From IMG/VR virus record IMGVR_UViG_2695420471_000001: a stretch of DNA of 26,356 bases. One strand, written 5' to 3'. Under the pieces are notes generated by a model that did not search any database, was not told where the DNA came from, and was given only the letters and a program-made list of their open reading frames with translations. Source of the stretch: a virus (Duplodnaviria > Heunggongvirae > Uroviricota > Caudoviricetes). Made by a program: the position numbers and the translations under genes. Below, one piece after another: positions 346 through 24,544 of this stretch (the stretch's first letter is position 1; every line of letters begins with the position of its first letter).

Positions 346-408
346 ATTCACCCCACAAAAAGCCCGCCTGAACCAGCGGGCAGTCATAACACTGTGTTAC
401 CTGGCTAA

Positions 409-1075: not shown

Positions 1076-3412
1076 TCAGCTAATCGTGATGCCTGCAGTG
1101 GCTTTCTTCATCACCACAACCAGCAAATCGCTGATACTTGCTGTGGGATACCAGCCATTTACCAGCCATGCCGATACAGAAAACTCCAGCGTCATGTGAC
1201 CGTGACCGGCAGGCATATCAATAACACCCGTATATATCAGCGTATTATCCAGGGTCGTTCGGTTATAAATTTCAGCACCGTTTTTCTTCACTATCAGGCG
1301 GCATGACGAATAAATATTGTTATTCTTCCGCTCATGTTTAGCACCGCGAAACGCCACCGCGGGAATAACAATTTGCCGATCAAACGGCTGATCGTCATAA
1401 ACCCTGACGGTAATGGTCCCTGATGGCCACCTCTCCGGTGCCCGGGAGTCCCGTGGGAAAGGTTTGCCCACTGTTTTAACGAGATCGCCTTCAATCTGGT
1501 TCGCGGACAATTTTCCCAGAACCCGACAGTTCTTATTAATCGTGACGTTGTTGAGCGTCCCGGAGTTCGCGTTCACGTTACCGCTGATATCGGCATTTTT
1601 CGCCGTCAGCCGTCCGCCAGGTGTCAGGGAAAATGCCGGAGGATTACCGCCGCTGGTAATGGTCGGAGCCGTCAGGCATTTCAGGAACACGTCGTTCATG
1701 AATATCTGATCGCCCTGACCAACAAACATCGGCTTTGTGTTGCCATTCGCAGGATTAATCATCGCAATCCTGTCTGCCGCCAGCAGCACCTGACTCTGCA
1801 TTCCTGCTGGCGTATTCTCAATACCGGCACCGATACCCGCAATATAAAGGCGTCCGTCCTTCATCTGTTGCAGCTTCACAGCCCACATGCTGTTCAGGTT
1901 ATTATTTGTATCAACCTGAACTTTCTGTATCTGCTGGATTGCAGCACTCTGATTTTCCAGTTTTTTATTGACGGTTTGCGTGATTTCATTGCTGACATTC
2001 GTAATGGACGTCCTGATTTCAGTCAGGTCCGGCGCAAGCTGACCGTTATCAATCTGCGTCCACAACTCCTTGCCGAGATGCGTTTTATTGATCAACCCTT
2101 TATAAAAATTCAGATAACCTTCTGCATCATCGCTCGCCCGACCGATGGCCTCCACAAATGCCGATTTGCCAACGGTGTTCACACTGCGAACGTAAAAATA
2201 ATAATCATGGCCCGGCCTGATATTGATACTGGCGGCTATCCAGTACAGCGCCGTGCCAAGATAGCGGGCGCTGGTTTCAACCTGCCTGATATCCGCAATC
2301 CGCTTTTCCGAAAACCAGAACTCAAACTGCACCGTCGGGTCATATACAGCCAGTTTCGGGACCGCCGTTATCTGAAAATACCCCGGTATCAGTTCAATAG
2401 TGACAGGCGCTGCCGGTGCCGCAATCCGGAACGATACCGACGCCGGATCGCCCTGCTGCCCCCACGCATTTACTGCCCGGACTGTCAGCCTGTAGTTCCC
2501 CAGCGCCAGTTGTGTGAAGCGGTAAGTGGTTTCCGTCGTCCGGGCCGTGCTGACCAGCCGCTCACTGCCGTCATCCGCTGTTACGGTCAGACGGAGCAGG
2601 AAGCTCACGCCCTTCACCACCTTCGGCGTGTCCCAGCGCGCCAGCACCTGATATTCCCCGCTGTCTGCGGTGACTTCGGCAGTCAGGTGCTGCACCGCTG
2701 GCGGCGTGACACCATTCACCGTGCCGCTCTGGTCGCCGTCAAAGTGCGCCCCGTTATCCACGATGGCTTCTTTTTCCGGCACATGCTGCACGGCGGTGAT
2801 GGCATACGTGCCGTCGTCGTTCTCACGGATACTCACGCAGCGGAACAATCGCTGGTGCAGCGTCGGCAGCTTCAGCCCCCACACGCTGTATTCAGCAACA
2901 CCGTCAGGAACACGGCTCACTTTTACCTTCACGCCGTCGGTGACGGACTGGACCTCCACGCTGACCGGATTCCCCTGCCCGTCAACCAGGCTTATCAGCG
3001 TGGTGCCGGAGGATGGCAGCGTGATTTCACGGTCGAGCGTCAGCGTCCGGGTCTGGCTGTTCACCGCCAGCACGCGCCCGCCGGTGCGGATACCGGCATA
3101 GTCATCATCGCAGATTTCAATGACATCGCCCGGTACATGACGAAGCCCTTCAGCACCCACGCTGAAATCCACGGTCTGCGTCTCCAGCAGTTCCGTTTTA
3201 ATCAGCCACAGCCCGGCGCGGTGTGCCTGCCCCCGGCTGGTACAGCCAAAGGCATCCATCTTCGTGACGTTACGACCGTAACGGACAATGGCCTGCGTAT
3301 CCTCCACAAGCTCTGTCGCCGTCTCCCAGCCGTTATCCGGGTCAATCCAGTTCACCTCAACGGCATTATGGCGGTCTTTCAGGGCGCTGAAACTGTAGCG
3401 GAACGGCGCGCC
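1076..3412 (-). CDS. J: Host specificity protein J (central tail fiber), C-terminal about 778 codons; 5' end runs into an N-gap
   Basis: In-frame continuation of J-like sequence ([22 protein letters not shown]..., repeated fibronectin-like region, ...[35 protein letters not shown]...). Stop at 1076-1078. The N-terminal two thirds are near-identical to lambda J; the last 250 aa or so are recognisably homologous but divergent. Confidence 0.85.
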
Positions 3413-4361
3413 NNNNNNNNNNNGCCCGGACTGTCAGACTGTAATTCCCCAGCGCCAGCTGCCTGAAGCGGTATGTGGTTTCCGTCGTCCTGGCTGTGCT
3501 GACCAGCCGCTCACTGCCGTCGTCCGCTGCCACGGTCAGGCGAAGCAGGAAGCTCACACCCTTCACCACCTTCGGCGTGTCCCATCGCGCCAGCACCTGA
3601 TATTCCCCGCTGTCTGCGGTGACTTCGGCGGTCAGATGCTGCACCGCTGGCGGCGTGACACCATTCACCGTGCCGCGCCGGTCACCGTCAAAGTGTGCCC
3701 CGTTATCCACGATGGCCTCTTTTTCCGGCACATGCTGCACGGCGGTGATGGCATACGTGCCGTCGTCGTTCTCACGGATACTCACGCAGCGGAACAGACG
3801 CTGGCGCAGCGTCGGCAGCTTCAGCCCCCACACGCTGTATTCTGCAACGCCGTCAGGAACCCGGCTCACTTTCACCTTCACGCCGTCGGTGACGGACTGG
3901 ACCTCCACGCTGACCGGATTGCCACTTCCGTCAACCAGGCTTATCAGCGTGGTACCGGAGGACGGCAGCGTGATTTCACGGTCGAGCGTCAGCGTCCGGG
4001 TCTGGCTGTTCACCGCCAGTACGCGACCACCGGTGCTGATACCGGCATAATCATCATCGCAGATTTCAATGACATCACCCGGTACATGGCGAAGCCCTTC
4101 TGCGCCCACGCTGAAGTCCACGGTCTGCGTTTCCAGCAGTTCCGTTTTAATCAGCCACAGCCCGGCTCGGTGTGCCTGCCCCCGGCTGGTACAGCCAAAG
4201 GCATCCATCTTCGTGACATTACGACCGTAACGGGCAATGGCCTGCGTATCCTCCACAAGCTCTGTCGCCGTCTCCCAGCCGTTATCTGGGTCAATCCAGT
4301 TCACCTCAACGGCATTATGGCGGTCCTTCAGGGCGCTGAAGCTGTAGCGGAACGGCGCGCC
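2475..4361. repeat. Two near-identical copies (about 938 bp each) of an internal J segment, flanking the 11-N gap
   Basis: 2475-3412 aligns base-for-base with 3424-4361 apart from scattered SNPs (for example AIVRYGRNV vs AIARYGRNV, DGQGNP vs [18 protein letters not shown] vs RFRQLALGNYSL in translation). Confidence 0.85.
3413..3423. other. Run of 11 N (assembly gap or masked bases)
   Basis: Literal n characters in the sequence; flanked on both sides by J sequence from different positions of the gene. Confidence 0.95.
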
Positions 4362-5504
4362 ATCGTCCGGCATCACCACATTACTGCGGTTATAGGTCCA
4401 CACCTTATCCGACGGTCGGTCCTGCACGAACGTCAGCATCTGTCCGTTCCATACCGGCATACAGCGCATCGCCGAGCAGAAATCACTGAGAACATCCCAC
4501 GCCTTACGCTGTGTGGTCAGGTAAGAGTTACAGGTGATGCGCGGCTCCGTGCCGCCAAATCCGTCCGTCACTGACTGGTCGCAGTACTGGCCGATGACAT
4601 ACAGCGCCCATTTGTCCACATCTGCCGCACCAAGACGTTTCCCCATGCCGTAGCGCGGATGAGTGAGCATGTCCCACAGACACCAGGCCATGTTGTTGCT
4701 GTATGCTGGCTTAAGCGTTCCGTCCCAGATACCGCTGTATTGCCGCGTCTGCGGGTTATAGTTCGACGGCACCTGCAGAATGCGCCCGCGAAGATGATAA
4801 TTGCGACTCACCTGCTGGTTACCGAACTGCTCTGAATCCACCTGCACGCCGACCAGCGCCGTGTTCGGGTAGCACTGTTTCACATCGATGATTTCGGTGT
4901 ATGACGACCAGAGCGTTTTGTTCTGCAGCTGGTCTGTGGTGCTGTCCGGTGTCATCCTGCGCATCCGGATATTAAACGGGCGCGGCGGCAGGTTACCCAC
5001 CACCACCGAGGCCAGATACTGCGAAGTGGTTTTGCCCTTAATGGTGATGTCTTTTTCCGTCACCCAGCCACCGTTACGCTGTATCTGAACCAGCAGGCGG
5101 ACTTCCGACGGATTCCGGTCACCCTTTGAGGTGGTTTCCACCAGTGCCTGCACACCGAAGGTCAGGCGCAGACGGTCGATGTTTGCCGACGTGATGGTCC
5201 GGGTGATCGGCGTGTCATATTTCACTTCCGTACCCAGCACCGTCTCGGAGCCGGAGGATTCAAAACCCTCCGGCGGTGTCTGCTCCTGCTCACCTGCACG
5301 GAACACCACCGTAACACCGGAAAAGTTTGTCTTCCCCTCGCTGTCCAGGACCGGCGTACCGTTCAGCAGCACGCTTTTTAATCCATCCACCGGACCGTCA
5401 ACCGGCCCTTCGCTGATGGCATCAATCACACTCAGCAACTGCGTGGATTTCAGGTTGTCCTTCGCTTCGCGCGGGGTATGCCCCTTACTGCTGCCTTTAC
5501 CCAT
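3424..5504 (-). CDS. J: Host specificity protein J, N-terminal about 693 codons (copy B); 3' end runs into the N-gap
   Basis: ATG at 5502-5504; begins MGKGSSKGHTPREAKDNLKSTQLLSVIDAISEGPV..., near-identical to the lambda J N-terminus. The apparent continuation to a stop at 3366 passes through the N-run and is not real. Confidence 0.85.
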
Positions 5505-5564: not shown

Positions 5565-6206
5565 TCAGCGACCAATCACCACAACCTGACCACCATCCCC
5601 TTCGTCTGCCGTGCTGATCTCCTGAGAAACCACACGTGACCCCACGCGCATTTCACCGTACAGAACGGGCAGAACATTGCCCTGGGCAACCATGTTATCC
5701 AGTGACGAGAAATACGTGTTCTGCTTACCGTTATCCGTTGTCTGTGTACGGGGAGTTCTGGCTTTCGGTGCCAGCATCTGTGCAACACCGCCAAGCGTCA
5801 TACTGGCACCGAGAGAAAACAGCAGATTACTCGCCATAATTCCTACCCCCGGCATCCATATAGCAACCGCCATAACAGCCGCCCCCAGCACCGCCTGAAA
5901 CACACCGCCACTTTTAGCTCCCACCAGACGCGGTACTATGTGGATCACTGCACCATTTGCCAGCGGCTCATTAAGACGGGCAGACAATTCGGTTTCACCT
6001 GCATCACGCCCGGCAATGCGCACCTGATACCAGCCGTCACTCAGTTTCTGACGAAACGCCGGGAGCTGTGTGGCCAGTGCCCGGATGGCTTCAGCCCCCG
6101 TTTTCACACGAAGGTCGATGCGGCGACCAAATCGTTGTAAATCCCCGTAAAGGCAGATGCGCGCCATGCCCGGTGACGCCAGAGGGAGTGTGTGCGTCGC
6201 TGCCAT
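5565..6206 (-). CDS. I: Tail assembly protein I (copy 1, variant with shorter hydrophobic central segment)
   Basis: 213 aa; MAATHTLPLASPGMARICLYGDLQRFGRRIDLRVKTGAEAIRALATQLPAFRQKLSDGWYQVRIAG... matches lambda I. Overlaps the 3' end of K by about 100 nt and lies 60 nt upstream of J, exactly as in lambda. Confidence 0.85.
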   Translation of the reverse strand: MAATHTLPLASPGMARICLYGDLQRFGRRIDLRVKTGAEAIRALATQLPAFRQKLSDGWYQVRIAGRDAGETELSARLNEPLANGAVIHIVPRLVGAKSGGVFQAVLGAAVMAVAIWMPGVGIMASNLLFSLGASMTLGGVAQMLAPKARTPRTQTTDNGKQNTYFSSLDNMVAQGNVLPVLYGEMRVGSRVVSQEISTADEGDGGQVVVIGR

Positions 6207-6847
6207 TTGTCGGTATACCTCTCTCGTTTGCTCAGTTGTTCAGGAATATGGTGCAGCAGCTCGCCGTCACCACAGTAAATGGCGGCATGATTCGGCACCG
6301 ATGAACCAAAACAGCACAGCAGCACATCGCCCGGCTGTGCCTCTGTCAGTGCGACACGGTAAAAACCCGTCACCTCCATATTGTCAAGATAGAGATTCTG
6401 ACCGTTACGCCACCAGTCATCCCCGCGATGAAAATCCGGCATCTCAATCCCTGCCAGATGATAAGCATCCCGGAACAGCGTGTAACAGTCCGTCACCCCG
6501 TGCTCAAAGCGCCGCCCGGTAAGATGTGGCACACAGCGGAACTTGTGAATCGCCCCCCGGCAGACCAGCCACCACGGCAAATCACTCTGCACCTGCAGCC
6601 GCCGGTCAGCCTCACTCAGCCAGGGCAGACCACCGGGATGACTGTGGACCAGCGCCACAATCTCACCCTGCATTTGTGCCCGCAGCCAGTCCTCCGGAGC
6701 CATCCGGAACCGTTCCTCCGGCTCACCGGAGATATTCTCGCTGGGAAGATACCTGTCTCCCTCCGGCGTTCTTACCACGAAGCCACACGACTCCGCTGGC
6801 GCACATCGCCGGGCGTGCGCCAGAATCGCTGATTCTGTCTGTGTCAT
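6104..6847 (-). CDS. K: Tail tip assembly protein K (copy 1; JAMM/MPN plus NlpC/P60 domains)
   Basis: Start set at MTQTESAILAHARRCAPAESCGFVV (ATG 6845-6847), by homology to copy 2; the longer 335-aa track ORF is an upstream extension into L. JAMM motif HSHPGGLPWLSEAD is present. Confidence 0.85.
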   Translation of the reverse strand: MTQTESAILAHARRCAPAESCGFVVRTPEGDRYLPSENISGEPEERFRMAPEDWLRAQMQGEIVALVHSHPGGLPWLSEADRRLQVQSDLPWWLVCRGAIHKFRCVPHLTGRRFEHGVTDCYTLFRDAYHLAGIEMPDFHRGDDWWRNGQNLYLDNMEVTGFYRVALTEAQPGDVLLCCFGSSVPNHAAIYCGDGELLHHIPEQLSKRERYTDKWQRRTHSLWRHRAWRASAFTGIYNDLVAASTFV

Positions 6848-6851
6848 GGAT

Positions 6852-7550
6852 TTACTGAGAAAGTTTATTGATGGAAAGGAAACCGCCGAAATTACCGGTA
6901 TTGTTGCGCAACTCACACCCGCGCATACACTTGCTGCATTTGTCCTTCCGGATATCCGTCGTTGGTTTGTCGAACTCGTCAGCCACTGCCCTGCCCGTGT
7001 AACCACACTCATCAGAACGGTAAGTCCACATACAGGTATTCGCCAGCATGATACGCCCCGGGAAAACCGCGCCATCCGTCTCCGTTGGTGTGGCCAGCAC
7101 AAAAGAGGCACTGACCGCGCTCAGTTCGCTGCACTGCTCGATGCGCCAGCGGCTGATCACCTCCTGTTCCGGATCGGCGTCGCTGTTTCCGTTGACGAAG
7201 TTCACCGCATCCAGAAAACGGGCGTAAACCTTACGCCTGACCACCGTTCCGCCGACCAGACTCTGCAGGTCTTCCGCCATCCCGGTGACCATTCCGTGCA
7301 GGTTAGAAACCGTCAGTGTCGGACGGGCAGCACTGCCCTTGCCGTTCAGTTCAAATCCCGTCCCCTGAATGGGGTATGCCTGATACTGCCGCCCCTGCCA
7401 GGTAACCGGCTCACCTTTTTCGTTCTGCTCATTACAGAAAAAATAACGTTCTCCACCGACCTCTGTCAGATCGATTTCCCAGAGCACCACCTGGGCTGAC
7501 TGAGTGAGGCGTGTCGTCTCATGATGTGTTTCCTGTGGAATATCCTGCAT
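6852..7550 (-). CDS. L: Minor tail protein L (copy 1)
   Basis: 232 aa, same length as lambda L; about 90% identical by eye to copy 2. C-terminal cysteine cluster (DKCSKCMRGC) consistent with the Fe-S site described for gpL. Confidence 0.88.
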   Translation of the reverse strand: MQDIPQETHHETTRLTQSAQVVLWEIDLTEVGGERYFFCNEQNEKGEPVTWQGRQYQAYPIQGTGFELNGKGSAARPTLTVSNLHGMVTGMAEDLQSLVGGTVVRRKVYARFLDAVNFVNGNSDADPEQEVISRWRIEQCSELSAVSASFVLATPTETDGAVFPGRIMLANTCMWTYRSDECGYTGRAVADEFDKPTTDIRKDKCSKCMRGCELRNNTGNFGGFLSINKLSQ

Positions 7551-7559
7551 CAGAGCCTC

Positions 7560-7889
7560 CTATGCCACGACCTGTTCAAAATCTGCCGTTATGGTTACCC
7601 ACAACGCCCCCACGCTTGCCGACCATTTACGACAAACCACCCTGATCGGCTTCCAGTCATAAGGTGGCGTCCACTGAAATGCGCGGACGCCACCGTGCCG
7701 TTCCAGAAAGGCTTTTAAAAATGGGTGTTCACCTTTACGAACACGTATCTTCACGCTGTAAGTCGACAACTGGTTATTCAGTCCCGCCGCACGACGCTGT
7801 TCATAACCATCGCCCAGCTTCACTGTCACCACTTTCGGCTCTGATACCACATTCATATCCGGGCGCACTTTCCAGTGAAACGTCTCCAT
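7560..7889 (-). CDS. M: Minor tail protein M (copy 1, divergent allele)
   Basis: 109 aa, same length and position as lambda M but only about 50% identical by eye to copy 2 (METFHWKVRPDMNVVSEP... vs MKTFRWKVKPGMDVASAP...). Confidence 0.8.
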   Translation of the reverse strand: METFHWKVRPDMNVVSEPKVVTVKLGDGYEQRRAAGLNNQLSTYSVKIRVRKGEHPFLKAFLERHGGVRAFQWTPPYDWKPIRVVCRKWSASVGALWVTITADFEQVVA

Positions 7890-8228
7890 TACCGGTATGC
7901 TCCACTTAACCGGCCACCATCACGGGCCTGCTGTTGCATAAAGTCCGCGGCCGCTTTTTTCCCGAGGTCATAAACCACCTTCAGGGCAGCCGGACCTATC
8001 TGCCCGTTCGTGCCATCGTTATTGATCTCAATGTTGTACTGCGGGGCAAACATCACCATGCCTGAACCACCAGTATCCGCCACACCCCCCAGCTTACCAT
8101 CAGCACCGCGACGCAGTGGCAGAATGGCTTCAGGTCCCGCTTCCCCCATCACACCCGCGCCTTTTGCAAAAGCAAAAAACGTCGGACGGTTAACCACCGT
8201 GCCACTGTAGCGACTCAAATCAGCAGAC
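7889..8228 (-). pseudogene. H: Tape measure protein H, 3' fragment only (C-terminal 110 codons or so), truncated at an IS junction
   Basis: Translation ...YNIEINNDGTNGQIGPAALKVVYDLGKKAAADFMQQQARDGGRLSGAYR aligns with the lambda H C-terminus (...NHVVIQNDGTNGLPGPQMMKAVYDMARKGARDEIQTQMRDGGLFSGGGR). Its stop overlaps the M start. Upstream the reading frame runs into IS-like sequence and hits a stop; no H N-terminus is present. Confidence 0.7.
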
Positions 8229-8353
8229 TGAGGTAGCCTGAGTTTAACGGACACTCCTTCCTGAAATAGAATGGCATCAGAAGGAGCTAATAATGAGCAG
8301 AAAAACCCAACGTTACTCTAAAGAGTTCAAAGCCGAAGCTGTCAGAACGGTTC
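8229..8353 (+). mobile_element. IS3-family insertion sequence, left end only (putative inverted repeat plus first 20 codons of orfA); possibly IS600-like
   Basis: Good RBS (aaggag) then ATG at 8293 encoding MSRKTQRYSKEFKAEAVRTV, a typical IS3-family OrfA N-terminus (HTH region). Upstream sequence begins tgaggtagcctgagtttaacgg, consistent with a TG-initiated terminal inverted repeat. The element is cut off by NNN at 8354. The left boundary is approximate (about +/-10 bp). Confidence 0.6.
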
Positions 8354-8356
8354 NNN
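8354..8356. other. Run of 3 N at the IS/J junction
   Basis: Literal nnn; IS orfA sequence on one side, internal J sequence (minus strand) on the other. Confidence 0.95.
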
Positions 8357-9749
8357 TCCAGCAGTTCCGTTTTAATCAGCCACAGCCCGGCGCGGTGTGC
8401 CTGCCCCCGGCTGGTACAGCCAAAGGCATCCATCTTCGTGACGTTACGACCGTAACGGACAATGGCCTGCGTATCCTCCACAAGCTCTGTCGCCGTCTCC
8501 CAGCCGTTATCCGGGTCAATCCAGTTCACCTCAACGGCATTATGGCGGTCTTTCAGGGCGCTGAAACTGTAGCGGAACGGCGCGCCATCATCCGGCATCA
8601 CCACATTACTGCGGTTATAGGCCCACACCTTATCCGACTGTCGGTCCTGCACGAACGTCAGCGTCTGCCCGTTCCATACCGGCATACAGCGCATCGCCGA
8701 GCAGAAATCACTGAGCACATCCCACGCCTTGCGCTGTGTGGTCAGCCAGGCATTACAGGTGATGCGCGGCTCCGTGCTGCCAAAGCCGTCCGGCACCGAC
8801 TGGTCACAGTACTGGCCGATGACATACAGCGCCCATTTATCCACATCTGCCGCACCAAGACGTTTCCCCATGCCATAGCGCGGATGGGTCAGCATATCCC
8901 ACAGACACCAGGCCATGTTGTTGCTGTATGCCGGTTTTAACGTTCCGTCCCAGATACCGCTGTATTGCCGCGTCTGCGGNNNNNNNNNNNNNNNNNNNNN
9001 TTATAGTTCGACGGCACCTGCAGAATGCGCCCGCGAAGATGATAATTGCGACTCACCTGCTGGTTACCGAACTGCTCTGAATCCACCTGCACGCCGACCA
9101 GCGCCGTGTTCGGGTAGCACTGTTTCACATCGATGATTTCGGTGTATGACGACCAGAGCGTTTTGTTCTGCAGCTGGTCTGTGGTGCTGTCCGGTGTCAT
9201 CCTGCGCATCCGGATATTAAACGGGCGCGGCGGCAGGTTACCCACCACCACCGAGGCCAGATACTGCGAAGTGGTTTTGCCCTTAATGGTGATGTCTTTT
9301 TCCGTCACCCAGCCACCGTTACGCTGTATCTGAACCAGCAGGCGAACTTCAGACGGATTCCTGTCTCCCTTTGAGGTGGTTTCCACCAGTGCCTGTACAC
9401 CGAAGGTAAAACGCAGTCGGTCAATGTTTGCCGACGTGATGGTCCGGGTGATCGGCGTGTCATATTTCACTTCCGTACCCAGCACCGTCTCGGAGCCGGA
9501 GGATTCAAATCCCTCCGGCGGTGACTGCTCCTGCTCACCTGCCCGGAACACCACCGTGACGCCGGAGATGTTGGTATTCCCCTCACTGTCCAGCACCGGC
9601 GTACTGTTCAGCAGCACGCTTTTTAATCCATCCACCGGACCTTCAACCGGCCCTTCGCTGATGGCATCGATCACACTCAGCAGCTGCGTGGACTTCAGGT
9701 TGTCCTTCGCTTCGCGCGGGGTATGCCCCTTACTGCTGCCTTTACCCAT
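8357..9749 (-). CDS. J: Host specificity protein J, N-terminal about 465 codons (copy C), interrupted by a 21-N run at 8980-9000 and ending at the IS junction
   Basis: ATG at 9747-9749; MGKGSSKGHTPREAKDNLKSTQLL... It follows I (copy 2) after the same 60-nt spacer as lambda. About 98% identical to copy B with scattered substitutions (VEGPVDG vs VDGPVDG, NSTPVLDSEGNTNISG vs NGTPVLDSEGKTNFSG). The frame is broken by the N-run, which replaces 1 nt with 21 N. Confidence 0.85.
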
Positions 9750-9809
9750 TCGTCATGCTCCATAAACGATAAAACCGCCCGGAGGCGATTTCACATAAAA
9801 CATTTTGCA

Positions 9810-10481
9810 TCAGCGACCAATCACCACAACCTGACCACCGTCCCCTTCGTCTGCCGTGCTGATCTCCTGAGATACCACACGTGACCCCACGCGCATTTCA
9901 CCATACAGAACAGGCATAACATTGCCCTGGGCAACCATGTTATCCAGTGAGGAGAAATAGGTGTTCTGCTTACCGTTATCCGTTGTCTGTGTGCGGGGAG
10001 TTCTGGCTTTCGGTGCCAGCATCTGAGCCACACCGCCGAGCACCATACTGGCACCGAGAGAAAACAGAATGCCGGTCATACCACCGGCACCAATGGCAGC
10101 CCCCCATGCTGCAAGGGTGGCTCCGGCGGTAAAGAATGATCCGGCAATGGCGGCTGCTCCCAGGACAATCTGGAATACACCACCTGACTTGGCCCCGGCG
10201 ACTCTGGGAACAATATGAATCACAGCGCCGTCAGGCAGAGCCTCATGTAACTGTGCCGTTAATCCGGACGTGCTAACATCCTGCCCGGCAATACGCACCT
10301 GATACCAGCCGTCGCTCAGCTTCTGACGAAACGCAGGGAGCTGTGTGGCCATCGCCCGGATGGCTTCGGCACCCGTTTTCACACGAAGGTCGATGCGGCG
10401 GCCAAATCGTTGCAAATCCCCGTAAAGGCAGATGCGTGCCATGCCCGGTGACGCCAGAGGGAGTGTGTGCGTCGCTGCCAT
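9810..10481 (-). CDS. I: Tail assembly protein I (copy 2, lambda-type)
   Basis: 223 aa, the lambda I length, with near-identity to lambda I including the Gly/Ala-rich hydrophobic segment. Confidence 0.93.
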   Translation of the reverse strand: MAATHTLPLASPGMARICLYGDLQRFGRRIDLRVKTGAEAIRAMATQLPAFRQKLSDGWYQVRIAGQDVSTSGLTAQLHEALPDGAVIHIVPRVAGAKSGGVFQIVLGAAAIAGSFFTAGATLAAWGAAIGAGGMTGILFSLGASMVLGGVAQMLAPKARTPRTQTTDNGKQNTYFSSLDNMVAQGNVMPVLYGEMRVGSRVVSQEISTADEGDGGQVVVIGR

Positions 10482-11122
10482 TTGTCGGTATACCTCTCTC
10501 GTTTGCTCAGTTGTTCAGGAATATGGTGCAGCAGCTCGCCGTCACCACAGTAAATGGCGGCATGATTCGGCACCGATGAACCAAAACAGCACAGCAGCAC
10601 ATCGCCCGGCTGCGCCGCTGACAACGGCACCTGATACAGCCCTGTGGCCTCCAGATTATCCAGATAGAGATTCTGACCGTGACGCCACCAGTCATCCTCA
10701 CGATGAAAATCCGGCATCTCAATCCCCGCCAGATGGTAAGCATCCCGGAACAGCGTGTAACAGTCCGTCACCCCGTGCTCAAAGCGCCGCCCGGTAAGAT
10801 GTGGCACACAGCGGAACTTGTGAATCGCCCCCCGGCAGACCAGCCACCACGGCAAATCACTCTGCACCTGCAGCCGCCGGTCGGCCTCACTCAGCCAGGG
10901 CAGACCACCGGGGTGGCTGTGGACCAGTGCCACAATCTCACCCTGCATCTCTGCCTGCAGCCAGTCTTCCGGCGACATACGGAAATACGCCTCCGGCTCA
11001 CCGGAGATATTCACGCAGGGGAAATATCTTTCCCCCTCCGGCGTTCTTACCACGAAGCCGCACGACTCCGCTGGAGCACATCGCCGGGCGTGCGCCAGAA
11101 TCGCTGATTCTGTCTCTGTCAT
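10379..11122 (-). CDS. K: Tail tip assembly protein K (copy 2; JAMM/MPN plus NlpC/P60)
   Basis: 247-aa ORF starting 6 nt after the L stop (MTETESAILAHARRCAPAESCGFVV...). An internal Met at codon 49 (MSPEDWLQAEMQ...) would give a 199-aa product. Contains the JAMM motif HSHPGGLPWLSEAD and a Cys/His pair (DCYTLF...HAAIY) typical of NlpC/P60. Confidence 0.9.
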   Translation of the reverse strand: MTETESAILAHARRCAPAESCGFVVRTPEGERYFPCVNISGEPEAYFRMSPEDWLQAEMQGEIVALVHSHPGGLPWLSEADRRLQVQSDLPWWLVCRGAIHKFRCVPHLTGRRFEHGVTDCYTLFRDAYHLAGIEMPDFHREDDWWRHGQNLYLDNLEATGLYQVPLSAAQPGDVLLCCFGSSVPNHAAIYCGDGELLHHIPEQLSKRERYTDKWQRRTHSLWRHRAWHASAFTGICNDLAAASTFV

Positions 11123-11127
11123 GGGAT

Positions 11128-11826
11128 TTACTGCGAAAGTTTGTTAATGGAAAGGAAGCCGCCAAAGTTGCCGACGTTATTGCGAAACTTACAGCCACTC
11201 AGGCATTTGCTGCATTTATCCTTCGTGATGTCGGACGTTGGCTGGTCATATTCATCCGCGACCGCCGGACCGTGATAACCGCACTCATCGCCGCGATAGG
11301 TCCAGGTGCAGGTGTTGGCCAGCATGATACGTCCCGGAAAAACAGCGCCATCTGTTTCCGTCGGCGTGGACAGTACAAAAGAGGCACTCACCGCGCTCAG
11401 TTCGCTGCACTGCTCAATGCGCCAGCGGCTGATCACCTCCTGCTCCGGATCGGCGTCACTGTTTCCGTTGACGAAGTTCACCGCATCCAGAAAACGGGCG
11501 TAAACCTTACGCCGGACCACCGTTCCGCCGACCAGACTCTGTAGATCTTCCGCCATCCCGGTGACCATACCGTACAGGTTAGAAACCATCAGCGTGGGGC
11601 GCGTACTGGTGCCTTTGCCATTCAGTTCAAAACCACTCCCCTGAATGGGATACGGCTGATACTGTCGCCCCTGCCAGGTGACCGGCTCACCTTTTTCGTT
11701 CTGCTCATTACAGAAAAAATAACGTTCTCCACCGACCTCTGTCAGATCGATTTCCCAGAGCACCACGCTGGCCGACTGCTCCGCACGGGTGCATTCATTC
11801 AGTGTTTCCTGCCGGATATCCTGCAT
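11128..11826 (-). CDS. L: Minor tail protein L (copy 2)
   Basis: 232 aa, identical in length and near-identical in sequence to lambda L. Confidence 0.93.
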   Translation of the reverse strand: MQDIRQETLNECTRAEQSASVVLWEIDLTEVGGERYFFCNEQNEKGEPVTWQGRQYQPYPIQGSGFELNGKGTSTRPTLMVSNLYGMVTGMAEDLQSLVGGTVVRRKVYARFLDAVNFVNGNSDADPEQEVISRWRIEQCSELSAVSASFVLSTPTETDGAVFPGRIMLANTCTWTYRGDECGYHGPAVADEYDQPTSDITKDKCSKCLSGCKFRNNVGNFGGFLSINKLSQ

Positions 11827-12155
11827 CAGTTCACCACCTGTTCAAACTCTGCGCTGAACTCAACACGCAGCATACTGACCCGCGACGACCATTTTGCGCA
11901 GGTCACCTTTATCTGCCGCCACTCATAAGGCGGCGTCCACAGAAAGGCTTTCCAGCCCCCGTGCTCTTCCAGAAACGACTCCAGTACCATGGCCTCCTCA
12001 CGGGGGACAGAAAGCGTCACGCTGTACGTTTTCAGGTTGGCATTCAGCCCGGCAGGCGCTCGCTGGGAATAGCCATCACCAAAGCGCACCTTTCTTACAG
12101 AAGGGGCCGAAGCCACATCCATACCGGGTTTCACTTTCCAGCGGAAGGTTTTCAT
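11826..12155 (-). CDS. M: Minor tail protein M (copy 2)
   Basis: 109 aa; start overlaps the H stop (ATGA-type overlap), as in lambda. Confidence 0.93.
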   Translation of the reverse strand: MKTFRWKVKPGMDVASAPSVRKVRFGDGYSQRAPAGLNANLKTYSVTLSVPREEAMVLESFLEEHGGWKAFLWTPPYEWRQIKVTCAKWSSRVSMLRVEFSAEFEQVVN

Positions 12156-14713
12156 CGTCCACCTCCGGAGAACAGGCCACCATCACGCATCTGTGTCTGA
12201 ATTTCATCACGGGCACCCTTGCGGGCCATGTCATACACGGCCTTCATCATCTGTGGACCTGGCAGACCATTCGTACCGTCGTTCTGAATCACCACGTGAT
12301 TGTTCTGATTAAAATTAATGCCTTCAGCCCGCCGCATCTGCGCCGGACTTCCGGCACCGCCCACATAACCACCTTCCGCATAGCCGCGCATCAGCCGGTA
12401 GAGATTCCCCACGCCAATCCGGCTGGTTGCCTCCTTCGTGAAGACAAATTCACCACGGTGAACAATCCCCGCTGGCTCATATTTGCCGCCGGTTCCCGTA
12501 AATCCCCCGGTTGCAAAATGGAATTTCACCGCAGCGGCCTGAATGGCTGTACCACCTGACGCGGATGCGCCGCCACCAACAGCCCCGCCAATGGCGCTGC
12601 CGATACTCCCGACAATCCCCACCATTGCCTGCTTAAGCAGAATTTCTGTCATCATGGACAGCACGGAGCGGGTGAAGCTGCGCCAGTTCTGTTCACTGCC
12701 GGTCAGCATCGCCGCCATATTCTGTGCAATACCATCAAAGGTCTGCGTGGCTGCACTTTTAACCTGTGACATACTGTCCGTGGCGCTCTCTTCCCACTCA
12801 CTCCAGCCGGACTTCAGGCCTGCCATCCAGCTCCCGCGAAGCTGGTCTTCAGCCGCCCAGGTCTTTTTCTGCTCTGACATGACGTTATTCAGCGCCAGAG
12901 GATTATCGCCATACTGTTCCTTCAGGCGCTGTTCCGTGGCTTCCCGCGCTGCCTGCCGGTCAGTCAGCCCCCGGTTTTTCGCATCAATGGCTGCCCGTTT
13001 TGCCCGTTGCTGCTGTGCGAATTTATCCGCCTGCTGCGCCAGCGCATTCAGGTGCTCCTGATACGTAACCTTGTCACCAAGTGCAGCCAGCTGGCGTTTG
13101 TACTCCAGCGTCTCGTCTTTATGCGCCAGCAGGGATTTCTCCTGTGCGGACAGCTGGCGACGTTGTGCCGCCTCCTCCAGTACCGCGAACTGACTTTCTG
13201 CCTTCCACAAATCCCGGCGCTGCTGGCTGATTTTCTCATTCGCTCCGGCATGCTTCTCCAGCGTCCGGAGTTCTGCCTGAAGCGTCAGCAGGGCCGCATG
13301 AGCACTGTCTTCCTGACGATCGCCCGCATACACCTTCACGCCGGACTGTTTCGGCTTTTTCAGCGTCGCTTCATAATCCTTTTTCGCCGCCGCCATCAGC
13401 GTGTTGTAATCTGCCTGCAGGATTTTTCCGTCTTTCAGTGCCTTGTTCAGTTCTTCCTGACGGGCGGTATATTTCTCCAGCGGCGTCTGCAGCCGTTCGT
13501 AAGCCTTCTGCGCCTCTTCGGTATATTTCAGCCGTGACGCTTCGGTATCGCTCTGCTGCTGCGCATTTTTGTCCTGTTGACGCTGTTGATCTACCCTCTT
13601 TTGGGCTGCATCCCGCTCCAGGCGTTTTTTTTCACGATCATCCCAGTAACGCGCCCGTGCTTCATCGTTAACGAAATAATCATCCTTGCGCAGATTCCAG
13701 ATGTCGTCTGCTTTCTTAAACGCAGCCTCTGCCTTAATCAGCATCTCCTGCGCGGTATCAGGACGACCAATATCCAGCACCGCATCCCACATGGATTTGA
13801 ATGCACGTGCAGTCCTGTCTGCCCAGGTCTCCAGCGTGCCCATGTTCTCTTTCAGGCGGCGGGTCTGGTCATCAAACCCTTTCGTTGCGGCCTCGTTCGC
13901 CGCCTGCAATGCCCCGGCTTCATCGCCGGAACGCTGCAACTGAGCAACATACGCAATCTGCTCCGCCGTCACGTTATGGAACTGGCGTGCCATCGCCGTC
14001 AGCCCCGACGTCGGGTCTGTGGTCAGCTTCCCGAAGGCTTCAGCGACCTTGTCCACCTCCACGCCGGATGCATAGGAGAAACGCGCCACACTCTGGCTGA
14101 TGGACGCAATCTGAGCCTCACCGCTTACCCCCGCCTTAACCAGTGCGCTGAGTGACTCGCTGGTCTGGTTAAACGTCAGCCCTGCCGCCTGCCCGGCTCT
14201 GGACAGGACCAGCATACGATCTGCCGTCAGTCCCGCCTGATTACCGGAAAGGACCAGCGTTTTGTTGAAATCGGACAGGGTTGAGTTGCCCTGATACCAG
14301 GCATACGCCAGCGCACCGGTCGCCACCGCCAGCGAGGTGGCCCCCACCATCGGCAGGGTGATCGCGCCGGCAAGCCCCCTGAACATGGGGATCATCCCGC
14401 CGAAGGAGTCCTTAACCTGACCACCCTGTTGCAGCAGGATCAGCCAGGGATTCTGCCCCCCTGCAAGCTGCGTGGCCACGTCGGTGAACTGTGCAGGCAG
14501 CATACGCATGGCGGCTTTATACTGCCCGACGGAAATCCCCGCTTTCTGTGCAGCCAGCGCCTGTCGGCTCAGCGACTGTTCAACGACTGCCGCTGTTTTT
14601 TTCGCATCACTTTCCGTACCGGAAAAATGACGCCTGACTCTGGCCATCTGCTCGTCAAATCTGGCCGCATCCAGACTCAAATCAACGACCAGATCGCCTA
14701 CCGGTTCAGCCAT
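12152..14713 (-). CDS. H: Tail tape measure protein H
   Basis: 853 aa, the lambda H length; long coiled-coil-rich middle region; C-terminus ...VIQNDGTNGLPGPQMMKAVYDMARKGARDEIQTQMRDGGLFSGGGR. Start overlaps the end of the T frame. Confidence 0.95.
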   Translation of the reverse strand: MAEPVGDLVVDLSLDAARFDEQMARVRRHFSGTESDAKKTAAVVEQSLSRQALAAQKAGISVGQYKAAMRMLPAQFTDVATQLAGGQNPWLILLQQGGQVKDSFGGMIPMFRGLAGAITLPMVGATSLAVATGALAYAWYQGNSTLSDFNKTLVLSGNQAGLTADRMLVLSRAGQAAGLTFNQTSESLSALVKAGVSGEAQIASISQSVARFSYASGVEVDKVAEAFGKLTTDPTSGLTAMARQFHNVTAEQIAYVAQLQRSGDEAGALQAANEAATKGFDDQTRRLKENMGTLETWADRTARAFKSMWDAVLDIGRPDTAQEMLIKAEAAFKKADDIWNLRKDDYFVNDEARARYWDDREKKRLERDAAQKRVDQQRQQDKNAQQQSDTEASRLKYTEEAQKAYERLQTPLEKYTARQEELNKALKDGKILQADYNTLMAAAKKDYEATLKKPKQSGVKVYAGDRQEDSAHAALLTLQAELRTLEKHAGANEKISQQRRDLWKAESQFAVLEEAAQRRQLSAQEKSLLAHKDETLEYKRQLAALGDKVTYQEHLNALAQQADKFAQQQRAKRAAIDAKNRGLTDRQAAREATEQRLKEQYGDNPLALNNVMSEQKKTWAAEDQLRGSWMAGLKSGWSEWEESATDSMSQVKSAATQTFDGIAQNMAAMLTGSEQNWRSFTRSVLSMMTEILLKQAMVGIVGSIGSAIGGAVGGGASASGGTAIQAAAVKFHFATGGFTGTGGKYEPAGIVHRGEFVFTKEATSRIGVGNLYRLMRGYAEGGYVGGAGSPAQMRRAEGINFNQNNHVVIQNDGTNGLPGPQMMKAVYDMARKGARDEIQTQMRDGGLFSGGGR

Positions 14714-15544
14714 ACCGGACTCCTCCTGCGATCCCTTCTGATACTGTCATCAGCATTACGTCATCCTCCGTCATGTCCGCCACATCCGGGGAAGCGGGGA
14801 TAACTTCATTCCCGTCCGGGCCAAAGCGGACACCTCCGGCAAGCCCTGCCGCTTTCTGCATCAGCACATCATCTTCAGGCTCTTCGTCAGCCTCGCGCCG
14901 GTTCAGCAGACTGAAATCCAGCGGATGCATCTCCGGATCGCTGAAAAACAGGCTGAGCACGGTGTACGTCAGCCCGGAAAAGTGCATATCCAGCAGAACA
15001 TCATGAAAATAATGGGTACTGTAAAAGCGGTGCCAGTCGGCATACTCCGTGGATGACATCCCGGCAAGCATGGCGCGCCAGTCGGGTCGCCCCATCTCAC
15101 GCGCCAGTTTCAGGGCAAAACTCAGCTCACCGTCGAACACTTTCCCGCAGAAACAGGCTCTGCAGGCCCGGCGTCCTCTGCCTGTTCAGGAGCATCATTC
15201 ACCACAAACTCATACATACCGGACAGCCGGTACACCACGTTTTCAGCATGAGAAATTGCCTCTGTGGGCCAGGTGGTAAGCACTTCCTGCTCAATCTGTT
15301 TAACGGCTTCATTCATGGACGGCATCTGCGTCTTCTTCGGATGGTTATGCCACAGGGACATCGCAACCACAAAAGCGCCGGTTCTGATGGCGTCTTCCAC
15401 AGTAAACTTCCGGTTGCTGTCTGACTCCGCCTGTTCTGCCTGCCGTTTCATCAGGTCGAGATGCTCAATACGCTGCAGGGCTGACAGTTCAGAAAGCGTG
15501 ACGGTCACACCGTTATGTTCAAATGATTCGGTTTTCAGGAACAT
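14706..15544 (-). CDS. T: Tail assembly chaperone G-T fusion, made by programmed -1 ribosomal frameshift
   Basis: The T reading frame (14706-15140) has no start of its own and lies -1 relative to G. The slippery heptamer G GGA AAG sits in the G frame at codons ...AGK, 6 codons before the G stop. After the slip the reading is ...GKVFDGELSFALKLAREMG..., matching lambda gpGT. Confidence 0.85.
15122..15544 (-). CDS. G: Tail assembly chaperone G
   Basis: 140 aa, MFLKTESFEHNGVTVTLSELSALQRIEHL...; same length as lambda G; stop TGA at 15122-15124. Confidence 0.93.
   Translation of the reverse strand: MFLKTESFEHNGVTVTLSELSALQRIEHLDLMKRQAEQAESDSNRKFTVEDAIRTGAFVVAMSLWHNHPKKTQMPSMNEAVKQIEQEVLTTWPTEAISHAENVVYRLSGMYEFVVNDAPEQAEDAGPAEPVSAGKCSTVS
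15140..15146 (-). promoter_or_regulatory. -1 frameshift slippery heptanucleotide GGGAAAG (G to G-T)
   Basis: Plus-strand ctttccc at 15140-15146 is the reverse complement of GGGAAAG, positioned in the G frame as G GGA AAG (same motif and position as in lambda). Confidence 0.8.
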
Positions 15545-15559
15545 CGCTGACTCTCCGGA

Positions 15560-16300
15560 TTAACTGGCGGTGACGTTGATTTCTGCAACCGCAGCAAACT
15601 CACCATTACCAGATACGACCGGAATGTTGACCTTGCCTGCAGCAACACCTTTCACGGTGATGGTCATACCACTGACCGACACGGTGGCTTTTGTTTTATC
15701 CGCAGACACCGCACGGAAGCTCTTGTCGGTTGCGCCATCCGGCTGGAATGCCACGGTCAGCGTGGTGCTCTGCCCTTTCACTACGGAAGCACTGGCGGGT
15801 GTCACCGTCATGCCGGTCGTCGCCGTCACCGTGCTGCGATCTTCTGCCATCGACGGACGTCCCACATTGGTGACCTTCACCGTGCGGGTAATCACCTCCT
15901 TCGCCGTCACCGCCTTACCGATACTGCTGACCCAGCCACGGAACACATCGACCGTGCCGTTCGGGAAGCGGATTTTATAGGCACGGGTATCACCTTCATT
16001 AAACCACGCCAGCAGCGCCTGCTGCCCCTGCTCTCCGGGCATCCACGCCAGCGTGAAGCTGGTATCTCCGGCAGATTTCTGCCCCTGCCCGGTCGCAGTC
16101 CAGTCTGCATCTTCATCATCGAGATAGCTGTCGTCATAGGACTCAGCGGTCAGTTCGCCGGGCGTCAGGTCTTTAACTTTTGCCAGACGCGACCAGTCAA
16201 CGTCTGAAAGCGGGTTCGCATAAGGGTCACCGCTCCCCTTATAAACCCACAGGGTGGTCCCGGCACCTTTCACCGGCATTGTAGGATTTGGTACAGGCAT
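15560..16300 (-). CDS. V: Major tail tube protein V (with C-terminal Ig-like domain)
   Basis: 246 aa from ATG at 16298-16300 ([36 protein letters not shown]...). The track ORF starts 10 codons upstream at a weaker start. C-terminal [23 protein letters not shown]... is Big_2-like. Confidence 0.93.
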
Positions 16301-16307
16301 AGCGTCC

Positions 16308-16703
16308 TCACATTTCATAGATAATGACATAAGTCAGATCGGCTGAACTCCACAGGCCCGCATCATCGTCGCGCCGGTAGTCATAGCCGCTGGCCACCAT
16401 ACTGGTGATCAAATCTGACAGTGCCGGGATATCGCTCATCACAGGATAAATCCGGGACTCCATCCACGAATCCAGCTCTGAATCCGGCACCTGAGCAGGC
16501 AGGAAAACTTCAATATGCAGCTCCGCCTGCCAGGTATCGCTGTCCAGCTCTTCGCCCGTGTATTCAGCGCCGGTGAGATAAACGGCAATTGCCGGAAAAT
16601 CTTCCTCATCAAAAACAGCGGGGCGACCATCAAAAAGCGTCGCCCCGGTGTCATGCTTCTCCAGTGCATCCAGTACGGCTGCACGGAGTTCAGTATGTTT
16701 CAT
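16308..16703 (-). CDS. U: Tail terminator protein U
   Basis: 131 aa, [50 protein letters not shown]..., near-identical to lambda U. Confidence 0.93.
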
Positions 16704-17278: not shown

Positions 17279-17289
17279 ACATCCCCCTT

Positions 17290-17643: not shown

Positions 17644-17654
17644 AGCGCCTCCCG

Positions 17655-18053: not shown

Positions 18054-18094
18054 GAACTCCTCCACAGAGAGAAAATGGCCCCGAAGGGCCATGA

Positions 18095-19120: not shown

Positions 19121-19130
19121 AAAAAAATCC

Positions 19131-19157
19131 CGTAAAAAAAGCCACACAGGCGGCCTT
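19131..19157 (-). terminator. Terminator-like hairpin with U-tract in the D-E spacer (possible attenuator)
   Basis: Minus strand reads aaaggccgcctgtgtggcttttttt: a 5-bp stem (with one G-U pair) and 4-nt loop followed by seven U, located between the D stop (19176) and the E start (19120). Confidence 0.4.
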
Positions 19158-19175
19158 TAGTGATGAAGGGTAAAG

Positions 19176-19508: not shown

Positions 19509-19517
19509 AAACATCCC

Positions 19518-20837: not shown

Positions 20838-24518
<3,681 letters not shown>

Positions 24519-24544
<26 letters not shown>

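What the first reader, a model, noticed from the sequence alone, without database searches (positions are those of the whole stretch)
5565..12155. Two copies of the M-L-K-I tail-tip module with a divergence breakpoint at the M/L boundary
The window has a complete lambda-type set (M 11826-12155, L, K, I 9810-10481) and a second set (M 7560-7889, L, K, I 5565-6206). The second set is preceded by only the last 110 codons or so of a different tape-measure gene. By eye the two M proteins are about 50% identical, whereas L (about 90%), K (about 95%) and I (about 85%, with an indel in the hydrophobic central segment) are much closer. That pattern is a classic lambdoid mosaic joint, and it puts the recombination breakpoint inside or just after M. 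Either the host genome carries a second, defective lambdoid prophage remnant sharing its tail-tip genes with the intact one, or there is a true tandem duplication. Near-identical tail-tip genes are likely substrates for homologous exchange of host-range determinants between co-resident prophages.
Basis: partly seen in the sequence, partly recalled or inferred. Interest (0 to 1): 0.6.

Follow-up and report, generated by a model that had tools for sequence, protein, structure and literature searches.

The report
Two prophages mis-joined by a scaffolder
The two tail-tip gene sets are real, but they belong to two separate Shigella sonnei prophages (a lambda-like one and an IS600-truncated remnant) that a short-read scaffolder stitched together inside their similar J genes, so this is an ordinary, already known situation and not a tandem module.

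Summary
Both M-L-K-I sets are present at the stated coordinates. Protein identities are M 55%, L 88%, K 91% and I 81%. The identity step lies 60 nt inside L, not in M.

The window is a whole draft record, CXAW01000054.1, from a Shigella sonnei short-read assembly series. It has three N gaps: 3413-3423, 8354-8356 and 8980-9000. Every junction needed for a tandem arrangement falls on one of these gaps.

Set 2 (3424-8353) is 99.86% identical to a remnant found in complete S. sonnei chromosomes. That remnant reads Q, IS600, last 114 codons of H, M, L, K, I, J, lom. Set 1 is 99.76% identical to a different, lambda-like prophage. In chromosome CP104423.1 the two lie about 687 kb apart.

The contig ends beside the gaps are chimeric. 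Positions 2464-3412 are prophage-1 type, and 9048-9270 are prophage-2 type. All 7 differences between set 2 and the reference remnant are prophage-1 alleles. Removing 2464-3412 and filling the 11-N gap with 11 nt gives a J identical to the remnant's 1159-aa J.

Sibling assemblies join the two prophages in mutually inconsistent ways. The M/L identity step is the same as that between phages lambda and mEp460, so it is an old mosaic joint.

Verdict: known biology plus a scaffolding artefact. Low interest.

The parts
19..387 (-). Prophage-2 (P2) remnant: N-terminal fragment of a side tail fibre gene (122 aa)
   Evidence: Pfam phage_tail_N 1.5e-36. It is 100% identical to the remnant in complete S. 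sonnei chromosomes.
409..1008 (-). lom of the P2 remnant
   Evidence: Pfam Ail_Lom 4e-129. The exact protein is found only in the P2 context in complete chromosomes.
1076..2463 (-). 3' part of J of the P2 remnant (J nt 2093 to the stop)
   Evidence: All 604 informative sites in window positions 1-2420 are P2-type. There is no difference from L003 over 1-2463.
2464..3412 (-). Misplaced J fragment of prophage-1 (P1) type (J nt 1144-2092). It is fused to P2 sequence within the 43-nt identical stretch 2421-2463. It is a chimeric contig end.
   Evidence: All 56 informative sites are P1-type. Positions 3183-3412 are 100% identical to 8357-8586. The fragment overlaps set 2's J by 938 nt at 94.35% identity. 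The hybrid junction is absent from 29 loci, most of them from complete chromosomes.
3413..3423 (.). Scaffold gap of 11 N
   Evidence: Replacing 2464-3423 with 11 nt from the ungapped P2 contig L031 gives a 1159-aa J identical to the J of complete genomes.
3424..5504 (-). 5' part of J of the P2 remnant (nt 1-2081)
   Evidence: Positions 3424-8353 are 99.86% identical to L003, with 7 mismatches in 4930 nt.
5565..6206 (-). I, set 2 (213 aa)
   Evidence: Pfam Lambda_tail_I. It is 81.2% identical to I of set 1, with a 10-aa indel.
6104..6847 (-). K, set 2 (247 aa)
   Evidence: Pfam Prok-JAB plus NLPC_P60. It is 91.1% identical to K of set 1. The exact protein occurs in only 26 blocks, all with contigs under 50 kb.
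6852..7550 (-). L, set 2 (232 aa). The mosaic step lies at about 7491.
   Evidence: Pfam Phage_tail_L. It is 87.9% identical to L of set 1. Cys173, 182, 205 and 212 are conserved.
7560..7889 (-). M, set 2 (109 aa), of mEp460 type
   Evidence: Pfam Phage_min_tail. It is 55% identical to M of set 1.
7889..8230 (-). Last 114 codons of an mEp460-type tape-measure gene H, truncated at its 5' side
   Evidence: The DNA match to tape-measure genes of E. coli prophages and of mEp460/cdtI-type phages ends at 8230. There is no Pfam hit.
8229..8353 (+). Left end of IS600: terminal inverted repeat and the first 20 codons of orfA. The contig breaks inside this multicopy element.
   Evidence: Sequence. The corresponding stretch in complete genomes is 99.7% identical to annotated IS600.
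8354..8356 (.). Scaffold gap of 3 N. It joins IS600 nt 125 to the middle of P1's J.
   Evidence: The remaining ~1.1 kb of the IS600 copy that complete genomes carry here is absent from the window.
8357..8979 (-). J of P1, nt 751-1373 (small contig)
   Evidence: No difference from P1 (L012). Its first 230 nt are identical to 3183-3412.
8980..9000 (.). Scaffold gap of 21 N that stands for a single base
   Evidence: Alignment to P1 and P2 shows 20 surplus positions.
9001..9749 (-). J of P1, nt 1-749. Its last ~270 nt (9048-9270) carry P2 alleles, so this contig end is also chimeric.
   Evidence: All 11 differences from P1 in the M-to-J region lie at 9048-9270, and all are P2-type.
9810..10481 (-). 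I, set 1 (223 aa)
   Evidence: Pfam Lambda_tail_I.
10379..11122 (-). K, set 1 (247 aa)
   Evidence: Pfam Prok-JAB plus NLPC_P60.
11128..11826 (-). L, set 1 (232 aa). The mosaic step lies at about 11767.
   Evidence: Pfam Phage_tail_L. Step position.
11826..12155 (-). M, set 1 (109 aa), of lambda type
   Evidence: Pfam Phage_min_tail.
12152..25064 (-). The rest of the left arm of the lambda-like prophage P1, from H back to Nu1
   Evidence: Positions 9001-25100 are 97.2% identical to phage lambda over 16.1 kb. Positions 8357-22155 are 99.76% identical to P1 of complete S. sonnei chromosomes.

Best explanation
The window is one scaffold of a short-read draft assembly of Shigella sonnei (WGS record CXAW01000054.1). 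It concatenates pieces of two different lambdoid prophages.

Prophage 1 (P1; 8357-26356 plus the stray fragment 2464-3412) is a lambda-like prophage whose left arm is about 97% identical to phage lambda.

Prophage 2 (P2; 1-2463 and 3424-8353) is a defective remnant of an mEp460/cdtI-type lambdoid phage. IS600 has removed everything upstream of the last 114 codons of its tape-measure gene. What is left is H', M, L, K, I, J, lom and a fibre stub.

In the chromosome the two prophages lie hundreds of kb apart. Their J genes are 91-100% identical per 100 nt. I infer that the assembler collapsed or cross-extended them there and that the scaffolder and gap filler chained the resulting contigs. This produced an apparent tandem with three N gaps and chimeric contig ends.

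The M/L identity step is an old mosaic boundary between two phage lineages. H and M, the parts on the tube and tape-measure side, are lineage-specific. L, K, I and J, the tip and host-range block, are shared.

Shown: the identity of the pieces, their separate loci in complete genomes, the gaps, the chimeric ends, and the same step in lambda versus mEp460.

Inferred: the exact assembler steps (bubble merging and gap-filler extension in a Velvet/SSPACE/GapFiller-type pipeline).
For: 1. There are N runs at 3413-3423, 8354-8356 and 8980-9000. Every inter-module junction is one of them.
2. Self-BLAST shows two things. Positions 2475-3412 and 3424-4361 cover the same 938 nt of J at 94.35% identity, so the two sides of the first gap are not colinear. 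Positions 3183-3412 are 100% identical to 8357-8586, so piece 1-3412 continues piece 8357-8979.
3. As written, neither J is open: stops occur at aa 713 and aa 271. Two simple repairs restore them. Removing 2464-3412 and filling 11 nt gives a 1159-aa J with 0 differences from the remnant's J. Joining 9749-9001, one base, 8979-8357 and 3182-2464 gives 697 open codons, of which 695 match P1's J.
4. Positions 3424-8353 are 99.86% identical to a remnant in complete chromosomes, with the context Q antiterminator, IS600 copies, H', M, L, K, I, J (1159 aa), lom, IS. Positions 8357-22155 are 99.76% identical to a prophage with intact J (1165 aa), lom, stf and tfa.
5. In CP104423.1 the two M genes are at about 1,991,184 and 1,304,044.
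6. The contig ends are chimeric: 56 of 56 P1-type sites followed by 604 of 604 P2-type sites; 11 of 11 P2 alleles at 9048-9270; and 7 of 7 P1 alleles scattered in set 2.
7. The window equals CXAW01000054.1. Sibling CX** records join P1 and P2 inside J in mutually incompatible ways, including a 1512-aa chimeric J, while one sibling has a clean 7345-nt P2 contig. An independent ungapped 7358-nt P2 contig also exists.
8. The hybrid J junction is absent from 29 loci, most from complete chromosomes. In IMG/VR it occurs in 1 contig, against 23 contigs with the pure P2 junction and 116 with the pure P1 junction. That one contig carries all three forms at single-N joins.
9. Lambda versus mEp460 shows the same step, ending at L nt 60. 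E. coli homologues of both prophages show the same identity profile.
Against: 1. No reads or long reads of this particular isolate were available, so its own gene order is inferred from relatives.
2. One sibling scaffold (L173) also nests P2 inside P1's J, so the scaffolder repeatedly found read-pair links there.
3. One complete S. sonnei genome (75/02, CP019689.1) shows a P2-P2 tandem copy. IS-mediated duplication of this module may therefore occur, although that assembly also used SSPACE and gap closing.
4. That CXAW is S. sonnei rests on its accession series and its sequence identity, not on a record title.
Confidence: 0.93

Rival explanations
1. There is a true tandem or nested arrangement in this isolate. 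The IS600-bounded P2 module would have moved or been duplicated into the J gene of the lambda-like prophage, so that both M-L-K-I sets really lie about 4 kb apart.
For: The scaffold order itself supports it. A sibling scaffold (L173) has P2 between two J1 fragments. A P2-P2 tandem is present in CP019689.1, and S. sonnei is rich in IS600.
Against: Each junction is an N gap. Only 125 nt of IS600 are present before a 3-N gap. The flanks of the 11-N gap duplicate 938 nt of J out of frame. There is a 230-nt exact overlap between the pieces on either side of the inserted module. The sibling scaffolds disagree with one another. Complete chromosomes have the two prophages 687 kb apart, with intact J genes.
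Confidence: 0.03
2. There has been real recombination between the two prophages in this isolate or in a subpopulation of it. The hybrid J (P1-type up to nt 2092, P2-type afterwards), the P2-type patch at 9048-9270 and the seven P1 alleles in set 2 would be gene-conversion tracts.
For: Every discordant site carries the allele of the other copy. The hybrid junction recurs in one other public scaffold. Recombination between temperate phages and defective prophages is documented (PMC3945230).
Against: The two long tracts end exactly at scaffold gaps. The variant K2 protein occurs in only 26 blocks, all with contigs under 50 kb, and all eight places shown are from the same accession series. No tract is seen in the loci from complete chromosomes. 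The other scaffold with the hybrid also holds both pure forms. The two prophages are in direct orientation, so a J1-up/J2-down crossover would delete 687 kb.
Confidence: 0.04

Closest known systems
Phage lambda late operon, tail-tip genes M-L-K-I-J (Lambdavirus)
   Same: Set 1 and the whole arm 9001-25100 are 97.2% identical to lambda, with the same gene order. M, L, K and I hit the lambda Pfam families. The four Fe-S cysteines of gpL (173, 182, 205, 212; PMC10721106) are present in both L copies.
   Different: It is a resident S. sonnei prophage with a 1165-aa J, against 1132 aa in lambda. In this record its J is broken by gaps and its right part is missing.
mEp460 / cdtI / PhiR55_1-type lambdoid phages, and their E. 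coli prophage relatives (for example at bioA-ybhB in FDAARGOS_944)
   Same: Set 2 with its H tail is 93-93.7% identical to these phages and 97.5% identical to the E. coli prophage. H and M are of this lineage. Lambda versus mEp460 shows the same identity step at L nt 60.
   Different: In lineage III S. sonnei only H', M, L, K, I, J and lom survive, because IS600 removed the head genes and most tail genes. The 3' half of L and part of K are a different allele from mEp460's.
Lambdoid mosaicism, and defective prophages as recombination partners (De Paepe et al. 2014, PMC3945230; Juhala et al. 2000, from memory)
   Same: There are sharp transitions between roughly 55-60% and over 90% nucleotide identity at or near gene borders. 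An intact phage and a remnant share tail genes in one host.
   Different: No exchange event is demonstrated here. The apparent tracts are assembly artefacts.
Repeat-induced scaffold misjoins in short-read assemblies
   Same: Contigs break at IS600 and inside the near-identical J genes. Ns are inserted at the joins. Contig ends carry alleles of the paralogous copy. Sibling assemblies give inconsistent orders.
   Different: Nothing is unusual. The only oddity is that the 11-N gap has exactly the length of the missing 11 nt, even though 949 foreign nucleotides sit next to it.

Membership tests
Lambda-type tail-tip module (gpM, gpL, gpK, gpI) | Each protein matches its Pfam family above the gathering score. 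| tested here: met
   All eight proteins match: PF05939, PF05100, PF14464 plus PF00877, and PF06805.
Lambda-type tail-tip module (gpM, gpL, gpK, gpI) | Gene order is H-M-L-K-I-J-lom on one strand, with K and I overlapping. | tested here: met
   ORF coordinates, and the same order in annotated lambda and mEp460.
Lambda-type tail-tip module (gpM, gpL, gpK, gpI) | gpL carries the four cysteines that ligate the Fe-S cluster (Cys173, 182, 205, 212 in lambda, PMC10721106). | tested here: met
   Both L copies have Cys at 173, 182, 205 and 212.
Lambda-type tail-tip module (gpM, gpL, gpK, gpI) | The module assembles into a functional tail tip. | not testable with these tools
   Set 2 lacks V, U, Z, G, T and most of H, so it cannot build a tail on its own. 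This is an inference.
Tandem duplication of the module | Uninterrupted sequence across both junctions between the copies. | tested here: not met
   The junctions are N runs, and the sequences on their two sides do not fit together as one gene.
Tandem duplication of the module | The same adjacency is seen in finished genomes of the lineage. | tested here: not met
   The modules are 687 kb apart in CP104423.1. The 10-kb flanks of either module exclude the other in all the complete-chromosome loci read.
Tandem duplication of the module | The copies derive from one another, that is, there is uniform high identity including H and M. | tested here: not met
   M is 55% identical at the protein level and 61% at the nucleotide level, and the H tails are 31% identical. 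Each copy is closer to a different free phage.
IS600 (IS3 family) | Near-identity to annotated IS600, including the terminal repeat. | tested here: met
   Positions 8229-8353 continue into a stretch that is 99.7% identical to 'IS3-like element IS600 family transposase'. Only 125 nt lie in the window.
Shigella sonnei defective prophage remnant (P2) | At least 99.8% identity to the locus in complete S. sonnei chromosomes. | tested here: met
   There are 7 mismatches in 4930 nt, and positions 1-2463 are identical. CP019689 is S. sonnei 75/02.

The most novel reading that the evidence does not exclude
The discordant tracts could be real, not artefacts. These are the hybrid J at 2421-2463, the P2-type patch at 9048-9270, and the P1 alleles in set 2. 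If real, this isolate (or part of its culture) would show ongoing two-way gene conversion of host-range gene J between an intact lambda-like prophage and a defective remnant 687 kb away.
Probability: 0.04. Interest if true: 0.4.

Novelty: already known. Interest (0 to 1): 0.07.

Why it matters
It matters mainly as a caution. Short-read scaffolds of genomes rich in IS elements and prophages, such as Shigella and pathogenic E. coli, can present two unlinked prophages as a tandem module. They can also fabricate 100%-identical "exchange tracts", hybrid J genes and oversized J proteins. Anyone mining such records for prophage architecture, tail-fibre diversity or recombination breakpoints would be misled.

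The underlying biology is textbook lambdoid mosaicism. It consists of a lambda-like prophage, an IS600-eroded mEp460-type remnant, and a mosaic joint 60 nt into L that separates the tube-side genes (H, M) from the tip and host-range block (L-K-I-J).

Tried and rejected
1. A third prophage carrying the hybrid J. The exact Lom protein of piece 1-3412 occurs only in the P2 context in complete chromosomes. The hybrid 90-mer is absent from 29 loci and from the species-representative genomes. The control P2 90-mer found only 2 genomes there, so that collection is a weak test.

2. Intragenomic gene conversion in complete genomes. A four-way comparison with E. coli homologues found no 150-nt window where P1 and P2 of S. 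sonnei are closer to each other than each is to its own E. coli homologue.

3. The N runs as 1:1 masks of real sequence. This is rejected for 8980-9000, where 21 N stand for 1 nt, and for 8354-8356, where about 1.1 kb of IS600 is missing.

4. Closest complete E. coli genomes. The best hits were only 96.9-97.7% identical, which pointed away from E. coli and towards Shigella.

5. Searching IMG/VR for the source of the window. The source is not there. It was found instead through the exact K2 protein.

6. Pfam on the H' fragment gave no hit. Its identity rests on DNA homology.

Structure prediction and remote-homology searches were not used, because every protein is a close relative of a characterised lambda protein.

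Full report
**1. What is in the window**

All long ORFs are on the minus strand and form a lambda-type late operon. From high to low coordinates they are:
- Nu1 (24519-25064), A, W, B, C, D, E and the remaining head and tail genes
- H (12152-14713)
- M (11826-12155), L (11128-11826), K (10379-11122), I (9810-10481)
- the start of J at 9749

A second set follows:
- an H tail (7889-8230)
- M (7560-7889), L (6852-7550), K (6104-6847), I (5565-6206)
- J starting at 5504
- lom (409-1008) and a fibre stub (19-387)

All eight M, L, K and I proteins hit their Pfam families far above threshold. Protein identities between the sets are M 55.0%, L 87.9%, K 91.1%, I 81.2% (with a 10-aa indel) and the H tails 31%.

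**2. The window is a gapped scaffold**

There are three N runs: 3413-3423 (11 N), 8354-8356 (3 N) and 8980-9000 (21 N). They divide the window into four pieces:
- A = 1-3412
- B = 3424-8353
- C = 8357-8979
- D = 9001-26356

Self-BLAST shows three relationships:
- B and C+D are homologous (88% over 3.6 kb).
- The end of A (2475-3412) and the start of B (3424-4361) cover the same 938 nt of J at 94.35% identity. A and B are therefore not colinear across the gap.
- The last 230 nt of A (3183-3412) are 100% identical to the first 230 nt of C (8357-8586).

The upstream end of B is the left end of an IS600. It comprises the terminal repeat and 20 codons of orfA (8229-8353). It is followed by NNN and then by the middle of a J gene. 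As written, neither J is an open gene: stops occur at aa 713 and aa 271.

**3. Where the pieces belong**

The exact M2 protein lies in many complete chromosomes of about 4.8 Mb. Its context there is Q antiterminator, IS600 copies, H' (121-127 aa), M, L, K, I, J (1159 aa), lom, IS. B is 99.86% identical to that locus (7 mismatches in 4930 nt).

The exact M1 protein lies in a different prophage. That prophage has a full head and tail gene set, an intact 1165-aa J, lom, a 1027-aa side fibre and tfa. C+D is 99.76% identical to it.

In CP104423.1 both are present on the same strand, at about 1,304,044 and about 1,991,184, which is 687 kb apart. One of the chromosomes carrying the remnant, CP019689, is S. 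sonnei 75/02. A contig carrying prophage 1, AKNC01000068.1, belongs to S. sonnei 3226-85.

**4. Chimeric contig ends**

Piece A switches cleanly between the two prophage types. From 3412 down to 2464 all 56 informative sites are P1-type. From 2420 down to 1 all 604 are P2-type. The switch lies in a 43-nt identical stretch. B stops at the position equivalent to A 2475.

Piece D does the same in the opposite sense. All 11 of its differences from P1 in the M-to-J region lie at 9048-9270, directly beside the 21-N gap, and all are P2 alleles.

All 7 differences between B and the reference remnant are P1 alleles. The perfectly identical runs that the window shows between the two sets are therefore partly artefacts.

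**5. Simple repairs restore both genes**

Deleting 2464-3412 and replacing the 11 N with the 11 nt of an independent ungapped P2 contig (L031) gives a 1159-aa J. It has 0 differences from the J of the complete-genome remnant.

Joining D, one base, C and A (3182-2464) gives 697 open codons, of which 695 match P1's J.

It is curious that the 11-N gap has exactly the length of the missing stretch.

**6. Source and sibling assemblies**

The exact K2 protein carries the foreign alleles. It occurs in only 26 blocks of the collection, all with contigs under 50 kb. One of them is CXAW01000054.1, which is 26,356 bp long and whose sequence is identical to the window. The other seven places shown are CX** records of the same series. 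PMC5447701 lists members of that series (CXAQ, CXBN, CXBR, CXBV and others) as S. sonnei isolates of Holt et al. 2012.

These sibling records join P1 and P2 inside J in incompatible ways:
- P2 nested between two J1 fragments (L173)
- P2 followed by the J1 3' end across 5, 48 or 67 N (L176, L178, L179)
- a P2/P1/P2 chimera without an N at the first join, giving a 1512-aa "J" (L177)
- a clean 7345-nt P2 contig (L180)

Other public scaffolds show similar stacks of overlapping J fragments at single-N joins.

The hybrid junction occurs in 1 IMG/VR contig, against 23 with the pure P2 junction and 116 with the pure P1 junction. That single contig holds all three forms.

I infer a short-read de Bruijn assembly followed by read-pair scaffolding and gap filling. 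I recall from memory that the depositing centre used a Velvet/SSPACE/GapFiller pipeline. I did not verify this.

**7. The mosaic joint**

Using complete-genome sequences, dense divergence ends at nt 60 of L, which is window 11767 / 7491. Identity is patchy after that point.

Set 1's arm is 97.2% identical to phage lambda over 16.1 kb. Set 2 is 93-93.7% identical to mEp460, cdtI and PhiR55_1-type phages and 97.5% identical to an E. coli prophage at bioA-ybhB.

Lambda versus mEp460 gives the same mismatch pattern, with the same last dense mismatch. The E. coli homologues of the two prophages reproduce the identity profile. The joint is therefore an old boundary between phage lineages and not an event in this host.

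A structural rationale can be inferred from PMC10721106. The gpM ring docks on the gpV tube, and the gpH C-terminus sits in the tip lumen. H and M would thus travel with the tube module. L, I and J form the conical tip and travel as the host-range block.

**8. Verdict**

The genes and the identity step are real. The tandem arrangement is a scaffolding artefact. The biology is known: a lambda-like prophage plus an IS600-eroded lambdoid remnant in S. sonnei. Residual uncertainty comes only from the lack of reads for this isolate.

Noticed in passing
L025/L026 (CP019689.1, S. sonnei 75/02, 4617248-4647264): This complete genome shows the P2 remnant twice in tandem: IS, H', M, L, K, I, J, lom, IS, H', M, L, K, I, J, lom. 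It is either a real IS-mediated duplication or an artefact of that genome's SSPACE and gap-closing assembly.
   Followed up: partly
L175 4083-9288 (CXAQ01000042.1, lineage I strain Sh74369): Here IS600 abuts the 3' end of V. G, T and a full-length mEp460-type H precede M2. The remnant is therefore less eroded in lineage I than in the window, which suggests stepwise IS600-mediated deletion among S. sonnei lineages.
   Followed up: partly
L177 2757-7295 (CXBN01000105.1): A P2/P1 chimeric contig with no N at the join encodes a 1512-aa 'J' with duplicated Ig_J domains. This misassembly would look like a novel giant host-specificity protein.
   Followed up: partly
window 3413-3423: The 11-N gap has exactly the length of the 11 nt missing between B and A 2463. 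Its first and last positions are P1/P2 SNP sites, yet 949 nt of P1-type sequence sit beside it. The assembler step that produced this is not explained.
   Followed up: partly
window 25100-26356: A low-GC stretch (about 40%) lies upstream of Nu1. It has two plus-strand ORFs, DUF3950 (25453-25686) and DUF1398 (25729-26154). These are typical accessory genes at the right end of lambdoid prophages.
   Followed up: partly
L001 2948-4711 (E. coli FDAARGOS_944, bioA-ybhB locus): The closest E. coli relative of the remnant is a full-length prophage with an HK97-type protease/capsid fusion. It sits at the lambda attachment region, with an ipaH effector gene just beyond its tail fibre genes.
   Followed up: no
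L069, L111, L020 (IMG/VR UViGs 2700989365, 2700989368, 2698536366): Other public draft scaffolds contain two or three overlapping J fragments separated by single Ns. J-gene pile-ups appear to be a recurrent artefact in enterobacterial drafts and in the viral catalogues derived from them.
   Followed up: partly
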